The notes under the pieces are model-generated. The model was given only the letters and a program-made list of their open reading frames with translations, was not told the DNA's origin and did not search any database. Below are positions 55,830-63,953 of a stretch of 64,000 bases of DNA, one piece after another. A program made the position numbers and the translations under genes. The DNA lies in the IMG/VR virus record IMGVR_UViG_2585427757_000006. One strand, written 5' to 3'. How positions within the stretch are numbered: position 1 is the stretch's first letter; the number at the start of each line of letters is the position of its first letter. This stretch comes from a virus. Lineage: Duplodnaviria > Heunggongvirae > Uroviricota > Caudoviricetes.

Positions 55830-56354
55830 ATGACAACCAAAGATATTACCTACGGTATCCAAGCTGAACTCTGGCCGCGAGATTACACTAACGTTGAAAA
55901 ACTACTGATGTTCTGGCGCAGAGAACAAATTCCTGTAAGGGTCACTCTCGAAGATGGCCAGGCGTTTTGCATGTACGTTTATGGCCTCATGCCATCTCGT
56001 AACAAAGTTGACCTTTGCCCAGCCCCTTTTGACAAAGAAAATCGTATAAGGCTCCCACTTGAACGCATTAGTACAATTGAATCAGGTGTGGTTGACAGTA
56101 TCGCTCACGATTTCAAAGGTCGACTAACAGTTCACCCTGATTATGTCGATAATCGGCCATCACGCCGCGATTTTTTTGCAATTTGCAACCAAGCCTACAA
56201 AGCAAACAAATCTATAAGGGTGTACATGGCGGATGGCCGTGAAATTGAGGGGGTGTCAGCAGGCGCAGATGCTTGTCAGGTTACACTACGTGTCGAGAAC
56301 GGTAGAAAAATAGTTGTTTTGTTCGATTGGGTTGAACGAATTTTGCCTTTTTGA
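55830..56354 (+). CDS. hypothetical protein
   Basis: Internal ATG (MTTKDITYG...) of track ORF 55752-56354, just after stop of lipoprotein gene. Confidence 0.45.
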   Translation: MTTKDITYGIQAELWPRDYTNVEKLLMFWRREQIPVRVTLEDGQAFCMYVYGLMPSRNKVDLCPAPFDKENRIRLPLERISTIESGVVDSIAHDFKGRLTVHPDYVDNRPSRRDFFAICNQAYKANKSIRVYMADGREIEGVSAGADACQVTLRVENGRKIVVLFDWVERILPF

Positions 56355-56357
56355 GTT

Positions 56358-56666
56358 ATGAAATCGATATTGTTACCACCATTATTTTTACTTTGCTCAG
56401 TTGCGGCAAATGCAATGGACTATAAGCCTGTCATTCAGTCGCTGATGAATGACGTGTGCTCAACGTCTCAGAATGTATCAGTTTGCATGTATCAATTTTC
56501 GGCAGCCGTAAAAGCAGGAAAAGCGATAGGCGAGAATGTGGAACTGTGTAAGAAAGTGGCAAATGAAGAACGGGCAATGTTGGATTGCGAATCTAGCGAG
56601 TCATCGGCACAGTTCGTTGATGCGCTATTTGACACCAATCGTAAGGCTGTAGAGTCTGTTCAATAA
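56358..56666 (+). CDS. secreted small protein
   Basis: N-terminal signal peptide MKSILLPPLFLLCSVAANA. Confidence 0.5.
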   Translation: MKSILLPPLFLLCSVAANAMDYKPVIQSLMNDVCSTSQNVSVCMYQFSAAVKAGKAIGENVELCKKVANEERAMLDCESSESSAQFVDALFDTNRKAVESVQ

Positions 56667-56856
56667 ATCTATAAGGTTAATAACCGGCTAAGTCCGGTTA
56701 TTATTTTTCACATCACTTCTTTATATCTACAAATCAAATAACCTAAATATATATAAGGTCTAAAGCCGCAATCGATTATTTATTTAGGGAACACCTTCGA
56801 CGATCTCGCTTTTATTTCTAGGACTTTCATCCCTGCAAAAAATTTTAAAAAAACAC

Positions 56857-56885
56857 TTGCAATCTTTTTTCGTATATCGATAATT
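56857..56885 (+). promoter_or_regulatory. sigma70-like promoter (TTGCAA - 16/17 bp - GATAAT) with upstream A/T tract
   Basis: Hexamers read directly about 65 bp upstream of ATG at 56950. Confidence 0.5.
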
Positions 56886-56949
56886 GAACTCGTCGAAAGC
56901 GAATACGCTAACGACAATAAATTTTAAATTTACATAAGGAAAAATCATC

Positions 56950-57600
56950 ATGGCTAACATTATCATTTCTAAAAAATCCATCGTTGAAGCTGCTTCCATT
57001 GTATCCGATGAACTGCGCGAAAAAGCAGATCTGGCAACTCAAACATATAATGAACATTATAAAAATGGTACGCACACTAAAGCAGACAAAGCAAATATGC
57101 AAGCTGCGACCACGAAACTTGCTTACTTCATCAACAACGTCGTAAACGCAGTAGAAGACGAAAAATTATGCTCTGTTTTCTACTATGCGATTAAAGCAAG
57201 CAAACAAGCGCCAGAAGTATTTTTTCGTGATGCAATGACTAATAGTTATTCTCTGGAAAAACTGGTTTATCTGGTTAAATCAATTAAATCTGGCAAATGC
57301 GTTTATTCCATCGCTGATATGTCAGGATCTCGTGTATTCGCTTTAATCGATATGATTAACGACGAGATCGACACGTTCACCAATGGCGCTGTTTTCGATT
57401 TAATGAATGAAGCTAAAAAAGCGTGTGAAATTAAATTGGACGCTGGCTATACTCAAGCCAACCAGTTGATCAATCTTTGCGAACGTCTTGGACTTGTTGA
57501 AAAAGTCAAAGGAGCTGGGAGCGCGAAAGCTGGTACTCAGCAATATCGCTTCATTAAAAATGATTTCTACAATTATTTGGCTGATGCTTTCAAAGCGTAA
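56950..57600 (+). CDS. hypothetical protein (moron-like cassette)
   Basis: 216-aa ORF with own promoter and downstream hairpin. Confidence 0.55.
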   Translation: MANIIISKKSIVEAASIVSDELREKADLATQTYNEHYKNGTHTKADKANMQAATTKLAYFINNVVNAVEDEKLCSVFYYAIKASKQAPEVFFRDAMTNSYSLEKLVYLVKSIKSGKCVYSIADMSGSRVFALIDMINDEIDTFTNGAVFDLMNEAKKACEIKLDAGYTQANQLINLCERLGLVEKVKGAGSAKAGTQQYRFIKNDFYNYLADAFKA

Positions 57601-57648
57601 TTAATGGAATCAAGCGCCCACTATGGGCGCTTTAAAGGAGCTTTGAAA

Positions 57649-57852
57649 ATGGTCAGCTATGACAAGATCCGCGCGGAATATCGCGCAAAGTATCGCGCTT
57701 ATAAACTGGAATTAATCGATGATTTGATCGCGCAACGCGACCAATTAAATTTTACGTTTTCTGATTTGCTTAACAGCAAGCGAGATTGCAAGCGCAAACG
57801 TGAATACTTACGCTTAAGCGCATTAATCGGAAAACTTCAAAATTCTATTTAA
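57649..57852 (+). CDS. hypothetical small basic protein
   Basis: ATG at 57649 preceded by AAAGGAG; track ORF 57604 start lies inside the upstream hairpin. Confidence 0.4.
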   Translation: MVSYDKIRAEYRAKYRAYKLELIDDLIAQRDQLNFTFSDLLNSKRDCKRKREYLRLSALIGKLQNSI

Positions 57853-57873
57853 TTTTTTTTAAGGAGCTTAATC

Positions 57874-58104
57874 ATGTTTGTTCTTATCGCTGGCGTTAAC
57901 GTCCATAATGAATATTATGTTAATCGCATCGCTGGGATCGCTGGTTACGCTGGGCGCGCAGTCGAGCTTATAGATGAAACGACGCGCAAAATTGACTTAT
58001 TGAGCGACCAGGAGCGAAAAAAAGCAGACGTGAACGACGCTGATATATTTTTAATGTTAAAAGCGTTTGTAGAAATGGGATTTAAAATCAGTTTACACAA
58101 ATAA
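57874..58104 (+). CDS. hypothetical small protein
   Basis: 76-aa ORF preceded by AAGGAG. Confidence 0.4.
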   Translation: MFVLIAGVNVHNEYYVNRIAGIAGYAGRAVELIDETTRKIDLLSDQERKKADVNDADIFLMLKAFVEMGFKISLHK

Positions 58105-58110
58105 AATCGA

Positions 58111-58139
58111 GCGCCCCCCATGGGCGCTTTTTTTTTTTT
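58111..58139 (+). terminator. strong intrinsic terminator
   Basis: gcgcccccca-tgggcgc followed by a 12-nt T-run. Confidence 0.7.
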
Positions 58140-58156
58140 CCATACTTCCACCATAA

Positions 58157-58181
58157 CGCGCCAATGATGGCGCTTTTTTTA
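58157..58181 (+). terminator. second tandem intrinsic terminator
   Basis: gcgcca-atga-tggcgc followed by ttttttt. Confidence 0.6.
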
Positions 58182-58595
58182 TTGTCTTTGACTCAAGCCA
58201 ACAACATAAAAATAAGCGCCAAAATAACGCCATAGACGCGCTTTTATATCCTTACCAGTACATACCCATTACTTAACACATTAACGCGCTTAAATCGCGT
58301 TATATTGCGTTATGGTGTATGGTTAATCATTGGCTTTTATTCTTGCTTTATGATCCGCGTTTATTTGTCGGCGCGGATCGGCATTTTGTTTTGTTCCGTA
58401 TCCGCTCGCGTATTATGTGCGCGTGATTTTTCACATAATCACACCACTTAATCACGTATGTGATTATGCTACGAAAGAAATCTGGATGTCTCAGGCGACG
58501 AAAGTCATCATAATTTTCCCCGCTCACCTGTCCGACAACCGCTGGTTGGATTCCACCAGCTTCCCGATGTTTTTTCTACACAAAGGCGAATGCAG

Positions 58596-58708
58596 CCGTT
58601 TCCCGAAAAAATCCTGGCCGTTCCCCGTCGGCTCATGAATACGTTCCTCGCCGTTTCTGAAAATTTCCCTGCGGCAGCTGGTGGCTATAGAGAAAGGGCC
58701 GTTTCTGG
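58596..58708. repeat. iteron-like array A: about 5 direct copies of CCGTT(T)CC(C)G motif at about 22-24 bp spacing
   Basis: Copies at about 58596, 58618, 58642, 58651, 58699; about 35 bp near-identical to array B. Confidence 0.7.
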
Positions 58709-58720
58709 CCCTCTTCTCAG

Positions 58721-59203
58721 TTACACGCCATCAAGGATGTGGATGCGGTTGCTTGCGTATACATTCAGCATAAAGTTAGCGCAAAACAGTTTCCATGTAT
58801 CAACGCCAGCGGTATACGTAATGTTTTTGCATTTAATTGCATTGTTGGCGATCCGCATCCCCTGCGATACTGCTTCATCGTCGGAAAATTTGAACGACGA
58901 TTGAGTTTTAATCCAGACAGAAATCTGCGTAGCGAACTCAATCAGCTTGGACTGGCAGAATCGCCCGGAGCGCACCGGAAAGACGAACGTTCCGAATCCA
59001 GAATTTACCACATATGCTTTCTCAAATACCCGCGAGTAACGACGATTGCCAATGATGTCGCGTGCAATAATGCATTTTTCTTGTGCTGACAGTTCTACCG
59101 TCTCATTGTCGCGCCATGCACCAAGTACTCGTTTTTCAATGTCAGAGAACGTTACAGCGATATTGCCATGTGCGGGTGCGTTTACAGTAGCGATAAAATT
59201 CAT
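58721..59203 (-). CDS. hypothetical protein
   Basis: 160-aa ORF; motif-II element about 22 bp upstream. Confidence 0.45.
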   Translation of the reverse strand: MNFIATVNAPAHGNIAVTFSDIEKRVLGAWRDNETVELSAQEKCIIARDIIGNRRYSRVFEKAYVVNSGFGTFVFPVRSGRFCQSKLIEFATQISVWIKTQSSFKFSDDEAVSQGMRIANNAIKCKNITYTAGVDTWKLFCANFMLNVYASNRIHILDGV

Positions 59204-61726: not shown

Positions 61727-61857
61727 CCGTTCCTGAACCGGCACCGAGCCTTTTCCCGAAATCCACACAGGCAACTCGACCGTTTCCCTGAAAATCCCCA
61801 GCCGTTCCCCGAAGGCAACCCAGCCGTTTCTGTAGCGGGATGCAGCCTTTTCCCTGT
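61727..61857. repeat. iteron-like array B: 6 direct copies of CCGTT(T)CC(C)(T)G motif, mostly 22-bp spacing
   Basis: Copies at 61727, 61749, 61780, 61802, 61824, 61846. Confidence 0.75.

Positions 61858-61986: not shown

Positions 61987-63953
<1,967 letters not shown>

What the first reader, a model, noticed from the sequence alone, without database searches (positions are those of the whole stretch)
56700..58200. AT-rich plus-strand moron-like cassette with strong sigma70-like promoter and a family of GCGCC...GGCGC hairpins
A promoter (TTGCAA-N16-GATAAT with A-tract) drives a 216-aa unknown protein and two small ORFs. The hairpins at 57613-57631, 58111-58127, 58158-58173 and about 58211-58240 share the GCGCC-N-GGCGC core, suggesting a repeated terminator/structured element family.
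Basis: seen in the sequence. Interest (0 to 1): 0.5.

Follow-up and report, generated by a model that had tools for sequence, protein, structure and literature searches.

The report
Silent phage-plasmid operon with duplicated terminators
This is a conserved, self-contained gene unit of SSU5/pHCM2/pMT1-type phage-plasmids, with its own promoter, a winged-helix protein of unknown role, two optional small genes and a duplicated terminator hairpin; published RNA-seq shows it switched off in the carrier state, so it is not a moron.

Summary
The described features are real. TTGCAA-N16-GATAAT sits at 56857-56884, followed by a 216-aa ORF, two small ORFs, and three GCGCC..GGCGC hairpins. These are the only three in 64 kb (0.43 expected). 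The fourth 'hairpin' lacks the core and folds no better than shuffles.

The window is an E. coli SSU5/pHCM2/pMT1-type phage-plasmid. ORF1 (phrog_1513, no Pfam) is a core gene. It is present in hundreds of related plasmids and keeps its synteny in relatives of 31-42% identity, with dN/dS 0.07. Its model has a helical N-terminal part and a winged-helix C-terminal domain.

In E. coli LF82, which carries the near-identical phage-plasmid Cyrano, published RNA-seq puts ORF1 and the small ORF at the detection floor. The operon just upstream is expressed. The moron reading therefore fails.

Hairpins 1 and 2 are copies of one terminator stem-loop. Across 87 distinct loci this stem-loop brackets 0, 1 or 2 small genes from only two families. 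Internal copies lose the T-tract to the next gene's Shine-Dalgarno sequence. The terminal copy keeps its T-tract and is backed by hairpin 3. Loops repeatedly flip to their reverse complement.

Function of the proteins stays unknown. Ordinary, modest interest.

The parts
56678..56708 (+). Intrinsic terminator of the upstream helicase-to-FljA-like operon (TAATAACCGG-CTAAGT-CCGGTTATTA followed by T5). It insulates the ORF1 unit from upstream transcription.
   Evidence: It folds at -12.6 kcal/mol, z -4.0, and is listed by the terminator scan. It is 88-98% identical across genera, against 50-63% at ORF1 third codon positions. In Cyrano, RNA-seq drops from log2 7-8 (CYRAN_114) to about 3 (CYRAN_113) across it.
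56746..56835 (+). Conserved non-coding blocks upstream of the promoter: ATATATATAAGG (56747-56758), TTTATTTAGGGAACACCTTCGA (56779-56800) and TTTTATTTCTAGGACTTTC (56810-56828). These are candidate regulator sites.
   Evidence: The blocks are at least 95% conserved in 81 distinct upstream sequences. The same motif types, AAATCTATAAGG x3 and TTTCTA(A/G)G x3, are present upstream of the 31%-identical homologue in L190. The 22-mer is unique in the window.
56836..56884 (+). Sigma70-type promoter: A/T tract resembling an UP element (56836-56856), -35 TTGCAA (56857-56862), 16-nt spacer, -10 GATAAT (56879-56884, inside the invariant TATCGATAATT).
   Evidence: TTGNNN-N16-GATAAT is found in 75 of 81 distinct sequences. 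Function is inferred; the promoter is silent in the LF82 carrier state.
56891..56949 (+). Predicted 5' UTR, with the conserved TCGAAAGCGAAyACGCTAACGA and the Shine-Dalgarno sequence AAGGA at 56936-56940.
   Evidence: The promoter plus UTR segment is 73-77% identical across genera, against 50-63% at neutral-proxy sites. The transcription start position is inferred from the -10.
56950..57600 (+). ORF1, 216 aa: a core gene of SSU5-type phage-plasmids (phrog_1513). It has an N-terminal long helical hairpin and a C-terminal winged-helix domain. Its function is unknown.
   Evidence: phrog_1513 matches at 7e-139. There are no Pfam, NCBIfam or PADLOC hits. 102 homologues were found, nearly all from Enterobacterales, many on contigs of about 105-112 kb. 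Only 24 clusters match in 1.84 billion representatives. dN/dS is 0.067. The AF2 model has pLDDT 82. Foldseek hits are to winged-helix domains only (Orc1/Cdc6, MukBEF head-module chain, RTP, PadR, TubR), with E at or above 0.009.
57613..57633 (+). Hairpin H, internal copy (AAGCGCCC-ACTAT-GGGCGCTT). It is followed by only TTT and then the Shine-Dalgarno sequence AAGGAG (57635-57640) of ORF2. It is predicted to be a weak or partial terminator, or a 3' stabiliser.
   Evidence: In 87 distinct loci, internal copies are followed by TTTAAAGGAG, TAGTTTTAAGGA or TTTTAAGGAG rather than a T-tract.
57649..57852 (+). ORF2, cassette family A: 67 aa, basic (pI 9.7), with heptad-like composition suggesting a coiled coil. 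It is optional in the family.
   Evidence: phrog_6145 matches at 6e-47; the 'MIT/CorA transporter' name is a mis-annotation. dN/dS is 0.065. It is present in SSU5 and absent in Cyrano, pMT1 and Cronobacter. Homologues are found only on SSU5-type contigs.
57874..58104 (+). ORF3, cassette family B: 76 aa. It is optional in the family.
   Evidence: phrog_1585 matches at 3e-39. dN/dS is 0.23. AF2's best model has pLDDT 81 but the other four only 47-64. The fold is ferredoxin-like, with weak PII/ACT/Cas2 matches at E of 0.004 or above. Homologues are nearly all on SSU5-type contigs; one 70% hit lies on a 5.2-Mb E. coli contig.
58110..58139 (+). Hairpin H, terminal copy (AGCGCCC-CCCAT-GGGCGCT) followed by T12. 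This is the main intrinsic terminator of the unit.
   Evidence: See (z -4.8). The terminal copy is followed by TTTTTTCGTTTC or similar in 80+ loci.
58158..58180 (+). Hairpin 3 (GCGCCA-ATGA-TGGCGC) followed by T7. This is a back-up tandem terminator.
   Evidence: The stem is conserved in all lineages, and the loops occur in both orientations: TTGT 23 / ACAA 9, ATGA 15 / TCAT 7, TTGA 3 / TCAA 1.
58214..58243 (+). It is not a member of the family and is weak in this window.
   Evidence: It folds at -6.2 kcal/mol, z -1.2. Other lineages can form AAACGCG-N9-CGCGTTT at the same place. It lies in a segment evolving at about the neutral rate.
58595..58718 (.). Far end of the gene-free zone. It holds four GCCGTT(T/C)C(C/T) repeats (58595, 58617, 58650, 58698) and the minus-strand terminator of the convergent 160-aa gene (58690-58718). 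It is adjacent to the unit; whether it belongs to it is unknown.
   Evidence: It is 72-74% identical across genera, against 48-60% for 58191-58560. The terminator folds at -17.7 kcal/mol, z -3.6.

Best explanation
The region is a conserved, insulated transcription unit of SSU5/pHCM2/pMT1-type phage-plasmids, not an imported moron.

How it is built:
- A sigma70-type promoter (56857-56884) drives ORF1, a winged-helix protein found only in this phage-plasmid lineage.
- The ORF1 stop is followed 12 nt later by a GC-rich stem-loop, here called H (AGCGCCC-loop-GGGCGCT).
- In the simplest relatives, H carries a T-tract and is backed by a second terminator, hairpin 3.
- In most relatives, including this window, one or two small lineage-specific genes sit between a T-tract-less copy of H and a full copy of H. 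These genes belong to family A (67 aa) or family B (75-76 aa).

How it probably works:
- The small genes are probably read by partial read-through of the internal copy.
- The whole unit ends at the terminal H followed by T12, plus hairpin 3.
- The repeated 19-nt stem-loop is where the small genes are gained, lost and stacked, most simply by recombination or slippage between copies.
- The stem is a perfect palindrome, and the loop repeatedly inverts.
- The unit is switched off while the element is carried as a plasmid, so its promoter must be repressed or silenced, or it needs an activator. It is probably used in the lytic or induced phase, or under particular stress.

Shown: the sequence anatomy, its conservation, purifying selection on the three ORFs, core status of ORF1, and silence in one lysogen.
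Inferred: promoter and terminator activity, read-through, the recombination mechanism, the cause of silencing, and any role of the proteins.
For: Identity of the element:
- The region is 98% identical to many E. coli plasmids of about 110 kb, and matches phages CMS-2020a, PhiR41_1, Cyrano and SSU5.

Core status of ORF1:
- 102 homologues were found, nearly all from Enterobacterales, many on contigs of about 105-112 kb.
- Only 24 clusters match in 1.84 billion representatives.
- Homologues of 31-42% identity keep the order ABC-ATPase, ParB_N, ParB_N (all leftward), then rightward DEAD helicase, a gap and ORF1. In the two loci that extend beyond ORF1, a gene-free gap of 600-750 bp follows.

Real genes:
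- dN/dS is 0.067 for ORF1, 0.065 for family A and 0.23 for family B.

Promoter:
- TTGNNN-N16-GATAAT is present in 75 of 81 distinct upstream sequences, and TATCGATAATT is invariant.
- The promoter plus UTR is 73-77% identical, against 50-63% at ORF1 third codon positions.

Hairpins:
- These are the only 3 copies of the core in 64 kb, and their folding z-scores are -2.8 to -4.8.
- Cronobacter, Buttiauxella and some other loci have ORF1-H(T-tract)-hairpin 3 with no small gene. All other loci have H-gene(s)-H-hairpin 3.
- Counts in 87 distinct loci are: A only about 32, B only about 23, A+B 19, B+B' with a third H copy 2, none 10.
- Internal copies are followed by the next gene's Shine-Dalgarno sequence, and terminal copies by T6 or longer.
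- Some lineages carry 2-3 tandem 44-nt terminator units.
- The exact 19-mer occurs in 94 IMG/VR stretches. In the 80 held for reading, all but one sit beside ORF1 or in a fragment of a known SSU5-type contig.
- Loop ACTAT occurs 134 times and its reverse complement ATAGT 19 times, in either copy and in several genera.

Silence in the carrier state (PMC9928086 S1 Table):
- CYRAN_113 log2(FPKM+5) is 2.78/2.32 in LB and 2.8-3.2 in medium, with the floor at 2.32.
- The mean count is 5.9, against the element median 9.8 and the moron cut-off 49.
- The upstream genes CYRAN_114, 117 and 118 are expressed at 18-114.
- Cyrano's -35 and -10 hexamers are identical to the window's.
Against: - No transcription start or 3'-end mapping exists for any member, so promoter and terminator activity rest on sequence and conservation.
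- Expression data come from one strain and one related element, not this one. No lytic or induced transcriptome was found, so 'used in the lytic phase' is inference by exclusion.
- CYRAN_113 rises only to log2 5.6 in macrophages at 6 h, as do many Cyrano genes.
- The hexamer match (9 of 12, 16-nt spacer) is unexceptional.
- Only two cassette families, always in the order A then B, were seen. The pattern could therefore reflect a few ancient deletions rather than ongoing exchange.
- In this window there is no hairpin between ORF2 and ORF3.
- The stem never varies, so there is no covariation evidence for RNA structure.
- The winged-helix call rests on weak Foldseek hits (E at or above 0.009), and the C-terminal domain is acidic (pI 5.0).
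Confidence: 0.6

Rival explanations
1. One reading: this is a moron, an imported AT-rich cassette with a strong constitutive promoter that is expressed from the resident element for the benefit of the host.
For: - It has its own promoter-like site and terminators, and lower GC than its surroundings (0.34-0.41 against 0.46).
- The small ORFs vary in presence among relatives.
Against: - ORF1 is present in all relatives examined, including homologues of 31-42% identity with conserved synteny.
- All three proteins are confined to this lineage, apart from one chromosomal ORF3 hit.
- The small ORFs have no promoter of their own.
- CYRAN_113 and CYRAN_112 are at the detection floor in LF82 and were not called morons by the authors.
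Confidence: 0.06
2. The stem-loop H is the recognition site of a dedicated cassette-shuffling mechanism, in the manner of T4-type PeSLs or integron attC sites. On this view it is not merely a terminator that happens to be repeated.
For: - Every cassette boundary coincides with a copy of H.
- Arrays with 3 copies and two stacked B alleles exist (L031, L036).
- The stem is 100% conserved while the flanks diverge.
- Recombination between PeSLs causes this kind of indel in T4-type phages (PMC2839356, PMC4122927).
Against: - Only two gene families, in a fixed order, were found in 87 loci.
- The repeat is confined to one locus per genome.
- There is no promoter half, unlike PeSLs.
- No recombinase is associated with the locus.
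- The A-B junction in 19 loci lacks H.
- A 19-nt direct repeat is enough for ordinary slippage or recombinase-mediated unequal exchange.
Confidence: 0.1
3. ORF1 and the gene-free DNA next to it form a cis/trans DNA-handling module, for example a lytic replication origin with its initiator or a partition- or silencing-type site. The hairpins would only insulate this module.
For: - Foldseek hits to the ORF1 model are all winged-helix domains, and the best is the origin-binding Orc1/Cdc6.
- A TQxxQ motif at the start of the predicted recognition helix is nearly invariant down to 21% identity.
- ORF1 is followed by a gene-free gap of 600-750 bp in the two distant relatives whose loci extend beyond it.
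- That gap ends in an array of GCCGTTTCC-type repeats that is conserved above the neutral rate.
- A second array with 22-bp phasing lies 3.1 kb away. Both arrays are present in Cyrano, and two comparable arrays occur in the distant locus L192.
- The unit is off during plasmid maintenance.
Against: - The winged-helix domain is acidic (pI 5.0).
- No link between ORF1 and the repeats has been shown. Two ParB_N proteins nearby are equally good candidates to bind them.
- The middle 370 bp of the gap evolves at about the neutral rate.
- No DnaA-box or AT-rich unwinding signature stood out.
Confidence: 0.12
4. The promoter is intrinsically weak or dependent on an activator, rather than strong and repressed. 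The conserved blocks at about -55 to -145 would be activator sites, and the unit fires only when a phage or host factor is present.
For: - The hexamers match 9 of 12 with a 16-nt spacer.
- There are conserved direct repeats, TTTATTT(N)AGG(G)AC, 32 bp apart and upstream of -35. The same motif types are retained in a very distant relative.
- The unit is silent without induction.
Against: - The A/T tract resembling an UP element and the near-consensus -10 argue for intrinsic activity in the E. coli lineage.
- The invariant aTCGATAATTg at the -10 matches 8 of 10 positions of the H-NS nucleation motif tCGATAAATT (PMC2094087), and the region is 34% GC. Both fit silencing as well as they fit activation.
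- The element expresses an S24/LexA-like repressor strongly in lysogens (CYRAN_98).
Confidence: 0.2

Closest known systems
Tandem Rho-independent (intrinsic) terminators closing a phage or plasmid operon at a zone of convergent transcription
   Same: The stems are GC-rich (6-8 bp), the loops are 4-5 nt, and a T-tract follows immediately (T12, T7). Two terminators lie in tandem at the end of a unit that faces an oppositely transcribed gene set. The stem is conserved while the loop varies freely.
   Different: The first copy is duplicated upstream and stripped of its T-tract, so one sequence serves both as an internal attenuator or stabiliser and as the final terminator. The duplication marks the boundaries of optional genes.
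PeSLs (promoter-early stem-loops) of T4-type phages (Arbiol et al. 2010, PMC2839356; Comeau et al. 2014, PMC4122927)
   Same: A short, highly conserved terminator stem-loop is repeated on both sides of small, non-essential genes of unknown function. Insertion, deletion and stacking differences between relatives have their endpoints in the repeats.
   Different: There is no promoter half here. There are only 2-4 copies at a single locus rather than dozens across hyperplastic regions. Only two gene families are involved, and mini-circles have not been examined. The host element is a temperate siphovirus-type phage-plasmid, not a T4-like myovirus.
Morons of lambdoid phages (Hendrix/Juhala concept; author's knowledge)
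   Same: The unit has its own promoter-like and terminator elements and deviant base composition. The small ORFs are present or absent between otherwise collinear genomes.
   Different: ORF1 is ancestral to the lineage, the small ORFs have no promoter of their own, and the unit is not expressed from the resident element in the one transcriptome available.
Minute loop inversions in hairpins of non-coding DNA (described for chloroplast spacers and bacterial quasi-palindromes; author's knowledge)
   Same: Loops are found as exact reverse complements (ACTAT/ATAGT, TTGT/ACAA, ATGA/TCAT, TTGA/TCAA) with few intermediates, while the palindromic stems stay unchanged.
   Different: Here the inversions occur in terminator hairpins of a mobile element, recurrently and in either copy.

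Membership tests
Moron (phage accessory transcription unit) | Present as an insertion between genes that are adjacent in related phages | tested here: not met
   ORF1 is in every relative examined, including homologues of 31-42% identity with the same neighbours. The feature is met only for the small ORFs 2 and 3.
Moron (phage accessory transcription unit) | Own promoter and own terminator | tested here: inconclusive
   The unit as a whole has a conserved promoter-like site and terminators. The variable small ORFs have a terminator copy but no promoter of their own. Activity has not been measured.
Moron (phage accessory transcription unit) | Transcribed from the resident prophage or plasmid while lytic genes are off | tested here: not met
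   CYRAN_113 and CYRAN_112 read 5.9 and 5.0 normalised counts (floor 4.99, median 9.8, cut-off 49) in LF82 (PMC9928086 S1 Table). This is one strain and a related element.
Intrinsic (Rho-independent) terminator | GC-rich stem with a short loop, followed directly by a run of T | tested here: met
   Met for 58110-58139 (7-bp stem followed by T12) and 58158-58180 (6-bp stem followed by T7). Not met for the internal copy at 57613-57633, which has only TTT and then AAAGGAG.
Intrinsic (Rho-independent) terminator | RNA 3' ends map to the T-tract in vivo | not testable with these tools
   No Term-seq or 3'-end data were found, and the unit is silent in the only transcriptome.
Sigma70 promoter | -35 and -10 hexamers with 16-18 nt spacing | tested here: met
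   TTGCAA-N16-GATAAT matches 9 of 12. This is not above chance on its own, but it is conserved in 75 of 81 distinct sequences.
Sigma70 promoter | Initiates transcription in vivo | tested here: inconclusive
   There is no signal in the carrier state of Cyrano/LF82. Induced or infecting conditions are not available.
PeSL (T4-type promoter-early stem-loop cassette) | Composite of a strong early sigma70-like promoter plus a terminator stem-loop | tested here: not met
   The repeated unit is the stem-loop, plus a T-tract or up to a 44-nt spacer. No promoter hexamers accompany the copies. The definition is taken from PMC2839356.
PeSL (T4-type promoter-early stem-loop cassette) | Indels and replacements between close relatives have endpoints in the repeats | tested here: met
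   All states (0, 1 or 2 cassettes, and 3 copies) are bounded by H copies in 87 loci.
PeSL (T4-type promoter-early stem-loop cassette) | Many copies dispersed through hyperplastic regions; mini-circle formation | tested here: not met
   Copies occur only at this locus in the 64-kb window and in IMG/VR contigs. Mini-circles cannot be tested here.
Winged-helix DNA-binding protein (ORF1 C-terminal domain) | Helix-turn-helix plus beta-hairpin wing fold | tested here: inconclusive
   The AF2 model (pLDDT 82) shows H-E-H-H-E-E at residues 128-201. Foldseek gives winged-helix hits only, with probability up to 1.0 and target TM-score 0.5-0.6, but E at or above 0.009. No Pfam or PDB sequence match was found.
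Winged-helix DNA-binding protein (ORF1 C-terminal domain) | Binds specific DNA | not testable with these tools
   The conserved TQxxQ in the predicted recognition helix argues for DNA binding. The domain's pI of 5.0 argues against it.

The most novel reading that the evidence does not exclude
ORF1 is a winged-helix protein family confined to SSU5-type phage-plasmids. Together with the conserved gene-free DNA beside it and the two arrays of GCCGTTTCC-type repeats (58595-58706, and 61748-61853 with 22-bp phasing), it could form an unrecognised cis/trans DNA-handling module. Examples would be the element's lytic replication origin and initiator, or a partition- or silencing-type system. Such a module would be kept off during plasmid maintenance and turned on at induction.
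Probability: 0.12. Interest if true: 0.6.

Novelty: new member of a known kind. Interest (0 to 1): 0.3.

Why it matters
SSU5/pHCM2/pMT1-type phage-plasmids are common in E. coli, Klebsiella, Salmonella, Enterobacter and Yersinia pestis, and they carry resistance genes. Most of their non-structural genes have no assigned function.

- Showing that this unit is core, insulated and silent in the carrier state removes it from the list of candidate lysogenic-conversion genes. It becomes instead a regulated, probably lytic-phase, function.
- The duplicated terminator gives a concrete small-scale example of how optional genes are added to and removed from an operon's 3' end without disturbing its termination.
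- The neighbouring repeat arrays are a lead for finding cis-acting sites of this family.

None of this overturns current understanding.

Tried and rejected
- Rfam at permissive thresholds gave only sub-threshold hits anchored on the terminators.
- Pfam, NCBIfam and PADLOC gave nothing for the three ORFs. The weak DUF6899, Torus and ISG65 hits are below cut-off. Pfam also gave nothing for the distant ORF1 homologues.
- PDB sequence searches with two profiles gave 0 hits at E up to 10.
- The 'MIT family metal ion transporter / CorA' name for ORF2 was rejected. The protein is 67 aa, basic, with no Pfam transporter match and no hydrophobic stretch by eye.
- I looked for the upstream conserved blocks elsewhere in the window and in 48 kb of Cyrano by shared 10-mers, to define a regulon. 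Only chance-level or coding hits appeared.
- I checked whether the Y. pestis pMT1 sRNAs sR082 and sR083 (PMC3770706) map to the gene-free zone. They lie near ymt instead.
- A 2026 preprint on an SSU5-type element and heteroresistance could not be opened.
- I considered an integron or attC-like reading of the hairpins and dropped it. There is no integrase, only two cassette families in a fixed order, and a single locus.
- I considered the second repeat array as an IS21 end and rejected it. Cyrano has the array without the IS.
Full report
**What is there**

The window from 56000 to 59000 shows the following features:
- a terminator hairpin at 56678-56703 followed by T5;
- a 250-bp AT-rich spacer;
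- TTGCAA (56857-62), a 16-nt spacer and GATAAT (56879-84), preceded by AAAAAATTTTAAAAAAACAC;
- a Shine-Dalgarno sequence AAGGA, then ORF1 (56950-57600, 216 aa);
- a stem-loop AAGCGCCC-ACTAT-GGGCGCTT (57613-57633);
- ORF2 (57649-57852, 67 aa) and ORF3 (57874-58104, 76 aa);
- AGCGCCC-CCCAT-GGGCGCT followed by T12 (58110-58139);
- GCGCCA-ATGA-TGGCGC followed by T7 (58158-58180).

GCGCC-N2-10-GGCGC occurs nowhere else in the 64 kb. Shuffles give 0.43 matches, and none of 100 reach 3. The three hairpins fold well below shuffled controls, with z-scores of -2.8, -4.8 and -3.0. GC is 0.34-0.41 here against 0.46 for the window. The promoter hexamers match 9 of 12, and such matches are not enriched in the region (9 found, 11.8 expected).

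**What the element is**

The DNA is 98% identical to many E. coli plasmids of about 110 kb. It also matches phages CMS-2020a, PhiR41_1, Cyrano and SSU5. With a more sensitive search, 812 plasmid records match, from Klebsiella, Escherichia, Enterobacter, Yersinia (pMT1), Salmonella (pHCM2), Citrobacter and Cronobacter. It is therefore an SSU5-type phage-plasmid. Every record calls the three ORFs hypothetical. The exception is the name 'MIT family metal ion transporter / CorA' given to ORF2 in SSU5 and PHROGs, which does not fit a 67-aa basic protein.

**The proteins**

- ORF1 is phrog_1513, with no Pfam, NCBIfam, PADLOC or PDB sequence match.
- Its 102 homologues are nearly all from Enterobacterales, many on contigs of about 105-112 kb.
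- A profile search of 1.84 billion representatives finds only 24 clusters.
- The full-length distant members (21-42% identity) whose contigs could be read keep the same neighbourhood. This is an ABC ATPase and two ParB_N genes transcribed leftward, then a DEAD/UvsW helicase transcribed rightward, sometimes a FljA-like gene, a gap of 370-500 bp and ORF1. In the two loci that extend beyond ORF1, a gene-free gap of 600-750 bp follows, facing convergent genes.
- ORF1 is under strong purifying selection (dN/dS 0.067), as are ORF2 (0.065) and ORF3 (0.23).
- The AlphaFold model of ORF1 (pLDDT 82) has a long N-terminal helical hairpin, further helices, and a C-terminal H-E-H-H-E-E unit.
- A D-x-(G)-Y-T-Q-x-x-Q motif at the predicted recognition helix survives to 21% identity. 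The C-terminal domain is nevertheless acidic (pI 5.0).
- ORF3's best model is ferredoxin-like with weak PII/ACT/Cas2 matches, and the other four models are poor.
- ORF2 and ORF3 homologues are found only on SSU5-type contigs, apart from one 70% ORF3 hit on a 5.2-Mb E. coli contig.

**Expression**

Misson et al. [quoted passage not shown] The ORF1 homologue CYRAN_113 reads log2(FPKM+5) 2.78/2.32 in overnight LB, 2.85/2.78 and 3.18/3.07 in medium, 3.41/3.90 in macrophages at 1 h, and 5.67/5.49 at 6 h. The floor is 2.32.

Its mean LB count is 5.9 and that of CYRAN_112 (the ORF3 homologue) is 4.99. The Cyrano median is 9.8 and the authors' moron cut-off is 49. Neither gene is in their moron list.

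The operon immediately upstream is expressed, at 18-114 counts for CYRAN_114, 117 and 118. The terminator at 56678-56703 therefore works, and the ORF1 promoter is off. Cyrano's -35 and -10 hexamers and spacer length are the same as in the window.

**Comparative anatomy**

An alignment of nine lineages and a survey of 87 distinct loci from IMG/VR, GTDB genomes and plasmids show the following.

1. TTGNNN-N16-GATAAT is kept in 75 of 81 distinct upstream sequences, and TATCGATAATT is invariant. Blocks further upstream are kept too: AAATATATAAGG, TTTATTTAGGnAACACCTTCGA and TTTATTTCTAAGACTTT.
2. In Cronobacter, Buttiauxella and some others, ORF1 is followed directly by AGCGCCCACTATGGGCGCT with a T-tract and then hairpin 3. 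There is no small gene.
3. Elsewhere the same 19-nt stem-loop appears twice. One copy follows ORF1 without a T-tract, with the Shine-Dalgarno sequence of the next gene starting 1-4 nt later. The other copy follows the small gene(s) and carries the T-tract.
4. The intervening genes belong to just two families, A and B. The arrangements are A only (about 32), B only (about 23), A+B without a hairpin between them (19, including this window), B+B' with a third hairpin copy (2), and none (10).
5. Some diverged members carry 2-3 tandem 44-nt terminator units.
6. The exact 19-mer occurs in 94 IMG/VR stretches. In the 80 held for reading, all but one sit beside ORF1 or in a fragment of a known SSU5-type contig.
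7. The stem never changes, but loops are found in both orientations: ACTAT 134 / ATAGT 19, and in hairpin 3 TTGT 23 / ACAA 9, ATGA 15 / TCAT 7, TTGA 3 / TCAA 1. These occur in either copy and in several genera. That is the signature of recurrent inversion within a palindrome. It shows that the stem, not the loop sequence, is what selection keeps.

Measured against ORF1 third codon positions (50-63% identity to other genera), the segments compare as follows:

| Segment | Identity to other genera |
|---|---|
| Upstream terminator | 88-98% |
| Promoter plus UTR | 73-77% |
| Hairpin 2 to hairpin 3 | 73-80% (52% vs Cronobacter, which lacks this hairpin copy) |
| 58191-58560 | 48-60% (about neutral) |
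| 58561-58720 | 72-74% |

**Interpretation**

The unit is a core, insulated operon whose 3' end is built from one terminator module.
- The terminal copy plus hairpin 3 are textbook intrinsic terminators placed where two transcription units converge.
- The internal copy has lost its T-tract and should let a fraction of transcripts continue into the optional genes, or protect the ORF1 3' end.
- The copies are the places where optional genes are lost, gained or stacked. Unequal exchange or slippage between 19-nt repeats is sufficient to explain this.
- The closest described parallel is PeSL-mediated shuffling in T4-type phages (PMC2839356, PMC4122927). The promoter half, the genome-wide dispersal and the diversity of cargo are all missing here.

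Why the promoter is off in lysogens is unresolved. There are three candidates:
- the element's strongly expressed S24-type repressor (CYRAN_98);
- H-NS silencing, since the region is 34% GC and the invariant aTCGATAATTg at the -10 matches 8 of 10 positions of the nucleation motif tCGATAAATT (PMC2094087);
- dependence on an activator that binds the conserved upstream repeats.

**Beyond the finding**

The gene-free zone ends in four GCCGTT(T/C)C(C/T) repeats (58595-58706). A second array of five, with 22-bp spacing, lies at 61748-61853. Eight of the ten matches in the window fall in these two arrays. Both arrays are in Cyrano, and two comparable arrays occur in the distant locus L192. Their partner protein is unknown. 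ORF1 is one candidate, and that is the basis of the 'novel case', which I rate at 0.12.

**Verdict**

The 'hairpin family' idea is right for three of the four hairpins, and more specific than proposed. The 'moron expressed in the carrier state' reading is contradicted. The result is a useful clarification of an ordinary feature in a known element family, with unknown protein function and one unexplained neighbour worth a follow-up.

Noticed in passing
window 58595-58706 and 61748-61853 (also L095 35336-35455 and 38956-39059; L192 7029-7231 and 11531-11873): There are two same-orientation arrays of GCCGTT(T/C)C(C/T)-type repeats, 3.1 kb apart. The second array has strict 22-bp spacing. Together they hold 8 of the 10 matches in 64 kb. 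Both arrays are present in Cyrano, and two comparable arrays occur in a locus whose ORF1 is only 33% identical. They look like iteron- or centromere-type protein-binding arrays, and the binding protein is unknown.
   Followed up: partly
window 55830-56354: This gene encodes a FljA-like protein (Pfam Flag1_repress, E 1.5e-84, with a weak Hfq-like stretch) immediately upstream of the unit. Its Cyrano homologue CYRAN_114 is expressed in the lysogen and rises from log2 about 4 to about 8 in medium and macrophages. It could affect host flagellin expression or act on phage RNA.
   Followed up: partly
window 56208-56219, 56665-56676, 56747-56758 (L190 5520-5640): The motif AAATCTATAAGG (or ATATATATAAGG) occurs three times within 550 bp, against 0.48 expected in the whole window. 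One copy lies inside the FljA-like gene, one just before the upstream terminator and one after it. Three copies also precede the ORF1 homologue in a very distant relative.
   Followed up: partly
window 56358-56666: A 102-aa ORF with a hydrophobic N-terminus (signal-peptide-like by eye; phrog_9536) lies between the FljA-like stop and the terminator. Of the nine lineages aligned, only this window's E. coli type (the annotated close relative L001 also has it) and pHCM2 carry it. It rides on an operon that is expressed in lysogens, which makes it a better accessory or 'moron-like' candidate than the flagged cassette.
   Followed up: partly
window 61987-63953: An IS21-family insertion sequence is present. 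IstA matches rve and Mu-transpos_C_2, and IstB matches IstB_IS21 at E 1e-87. It sits about 130 bp from the second repeat array and is absent at this place in Cyrano.
   Followed up: partly
L145 1497-1603, L114 8080-8142, L116 and L127 (IMG/VR contigs): In a diverged sub-lineage, ORF1 is followed by two or three head-to-tail 44-nt units. Each unit is the AGCGCCC-loop-GGGCGCT hairpin plus a T-tract and spacer. The terminator module itself therefore amplifies in tandem.
   Followed up: partly
window 58434-58443 and 58461-58470: CATAATCACA and its reverse complement TGTGATTATG form an inverted pair in the window and in Cyrano. Other lineages have a single CACATAATCACAT in the opposite orientation at the aligned position. 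This is a small conserved motif in an otherwise neutrally evolving spacer.
   Followed up: no
L190 6697-6786: In the distant relative L190, the place of the small cassette genes is taken by a 29-codon hydrophobic mini-ORF (read by eye; MKSLFTKVFQFILIGVLVVPLVWWWMLAF). It lies between two terminators of unrelated sequence, and the second terminator keeps the same TTTTTTATTGTCT tail as hairpin 3 of the window.
   Followed up: no
L097 12915-12933 (IMGVR_UViG_3300031925_000025, 32 kb): This is the only exact copy of the 19-nt hairpin found away from an ORF1 homologue. It sits directly after an unrelated gene ending ...GSSAGTYKVS and is followed by TTTTCTTAT.
   Followed up: no
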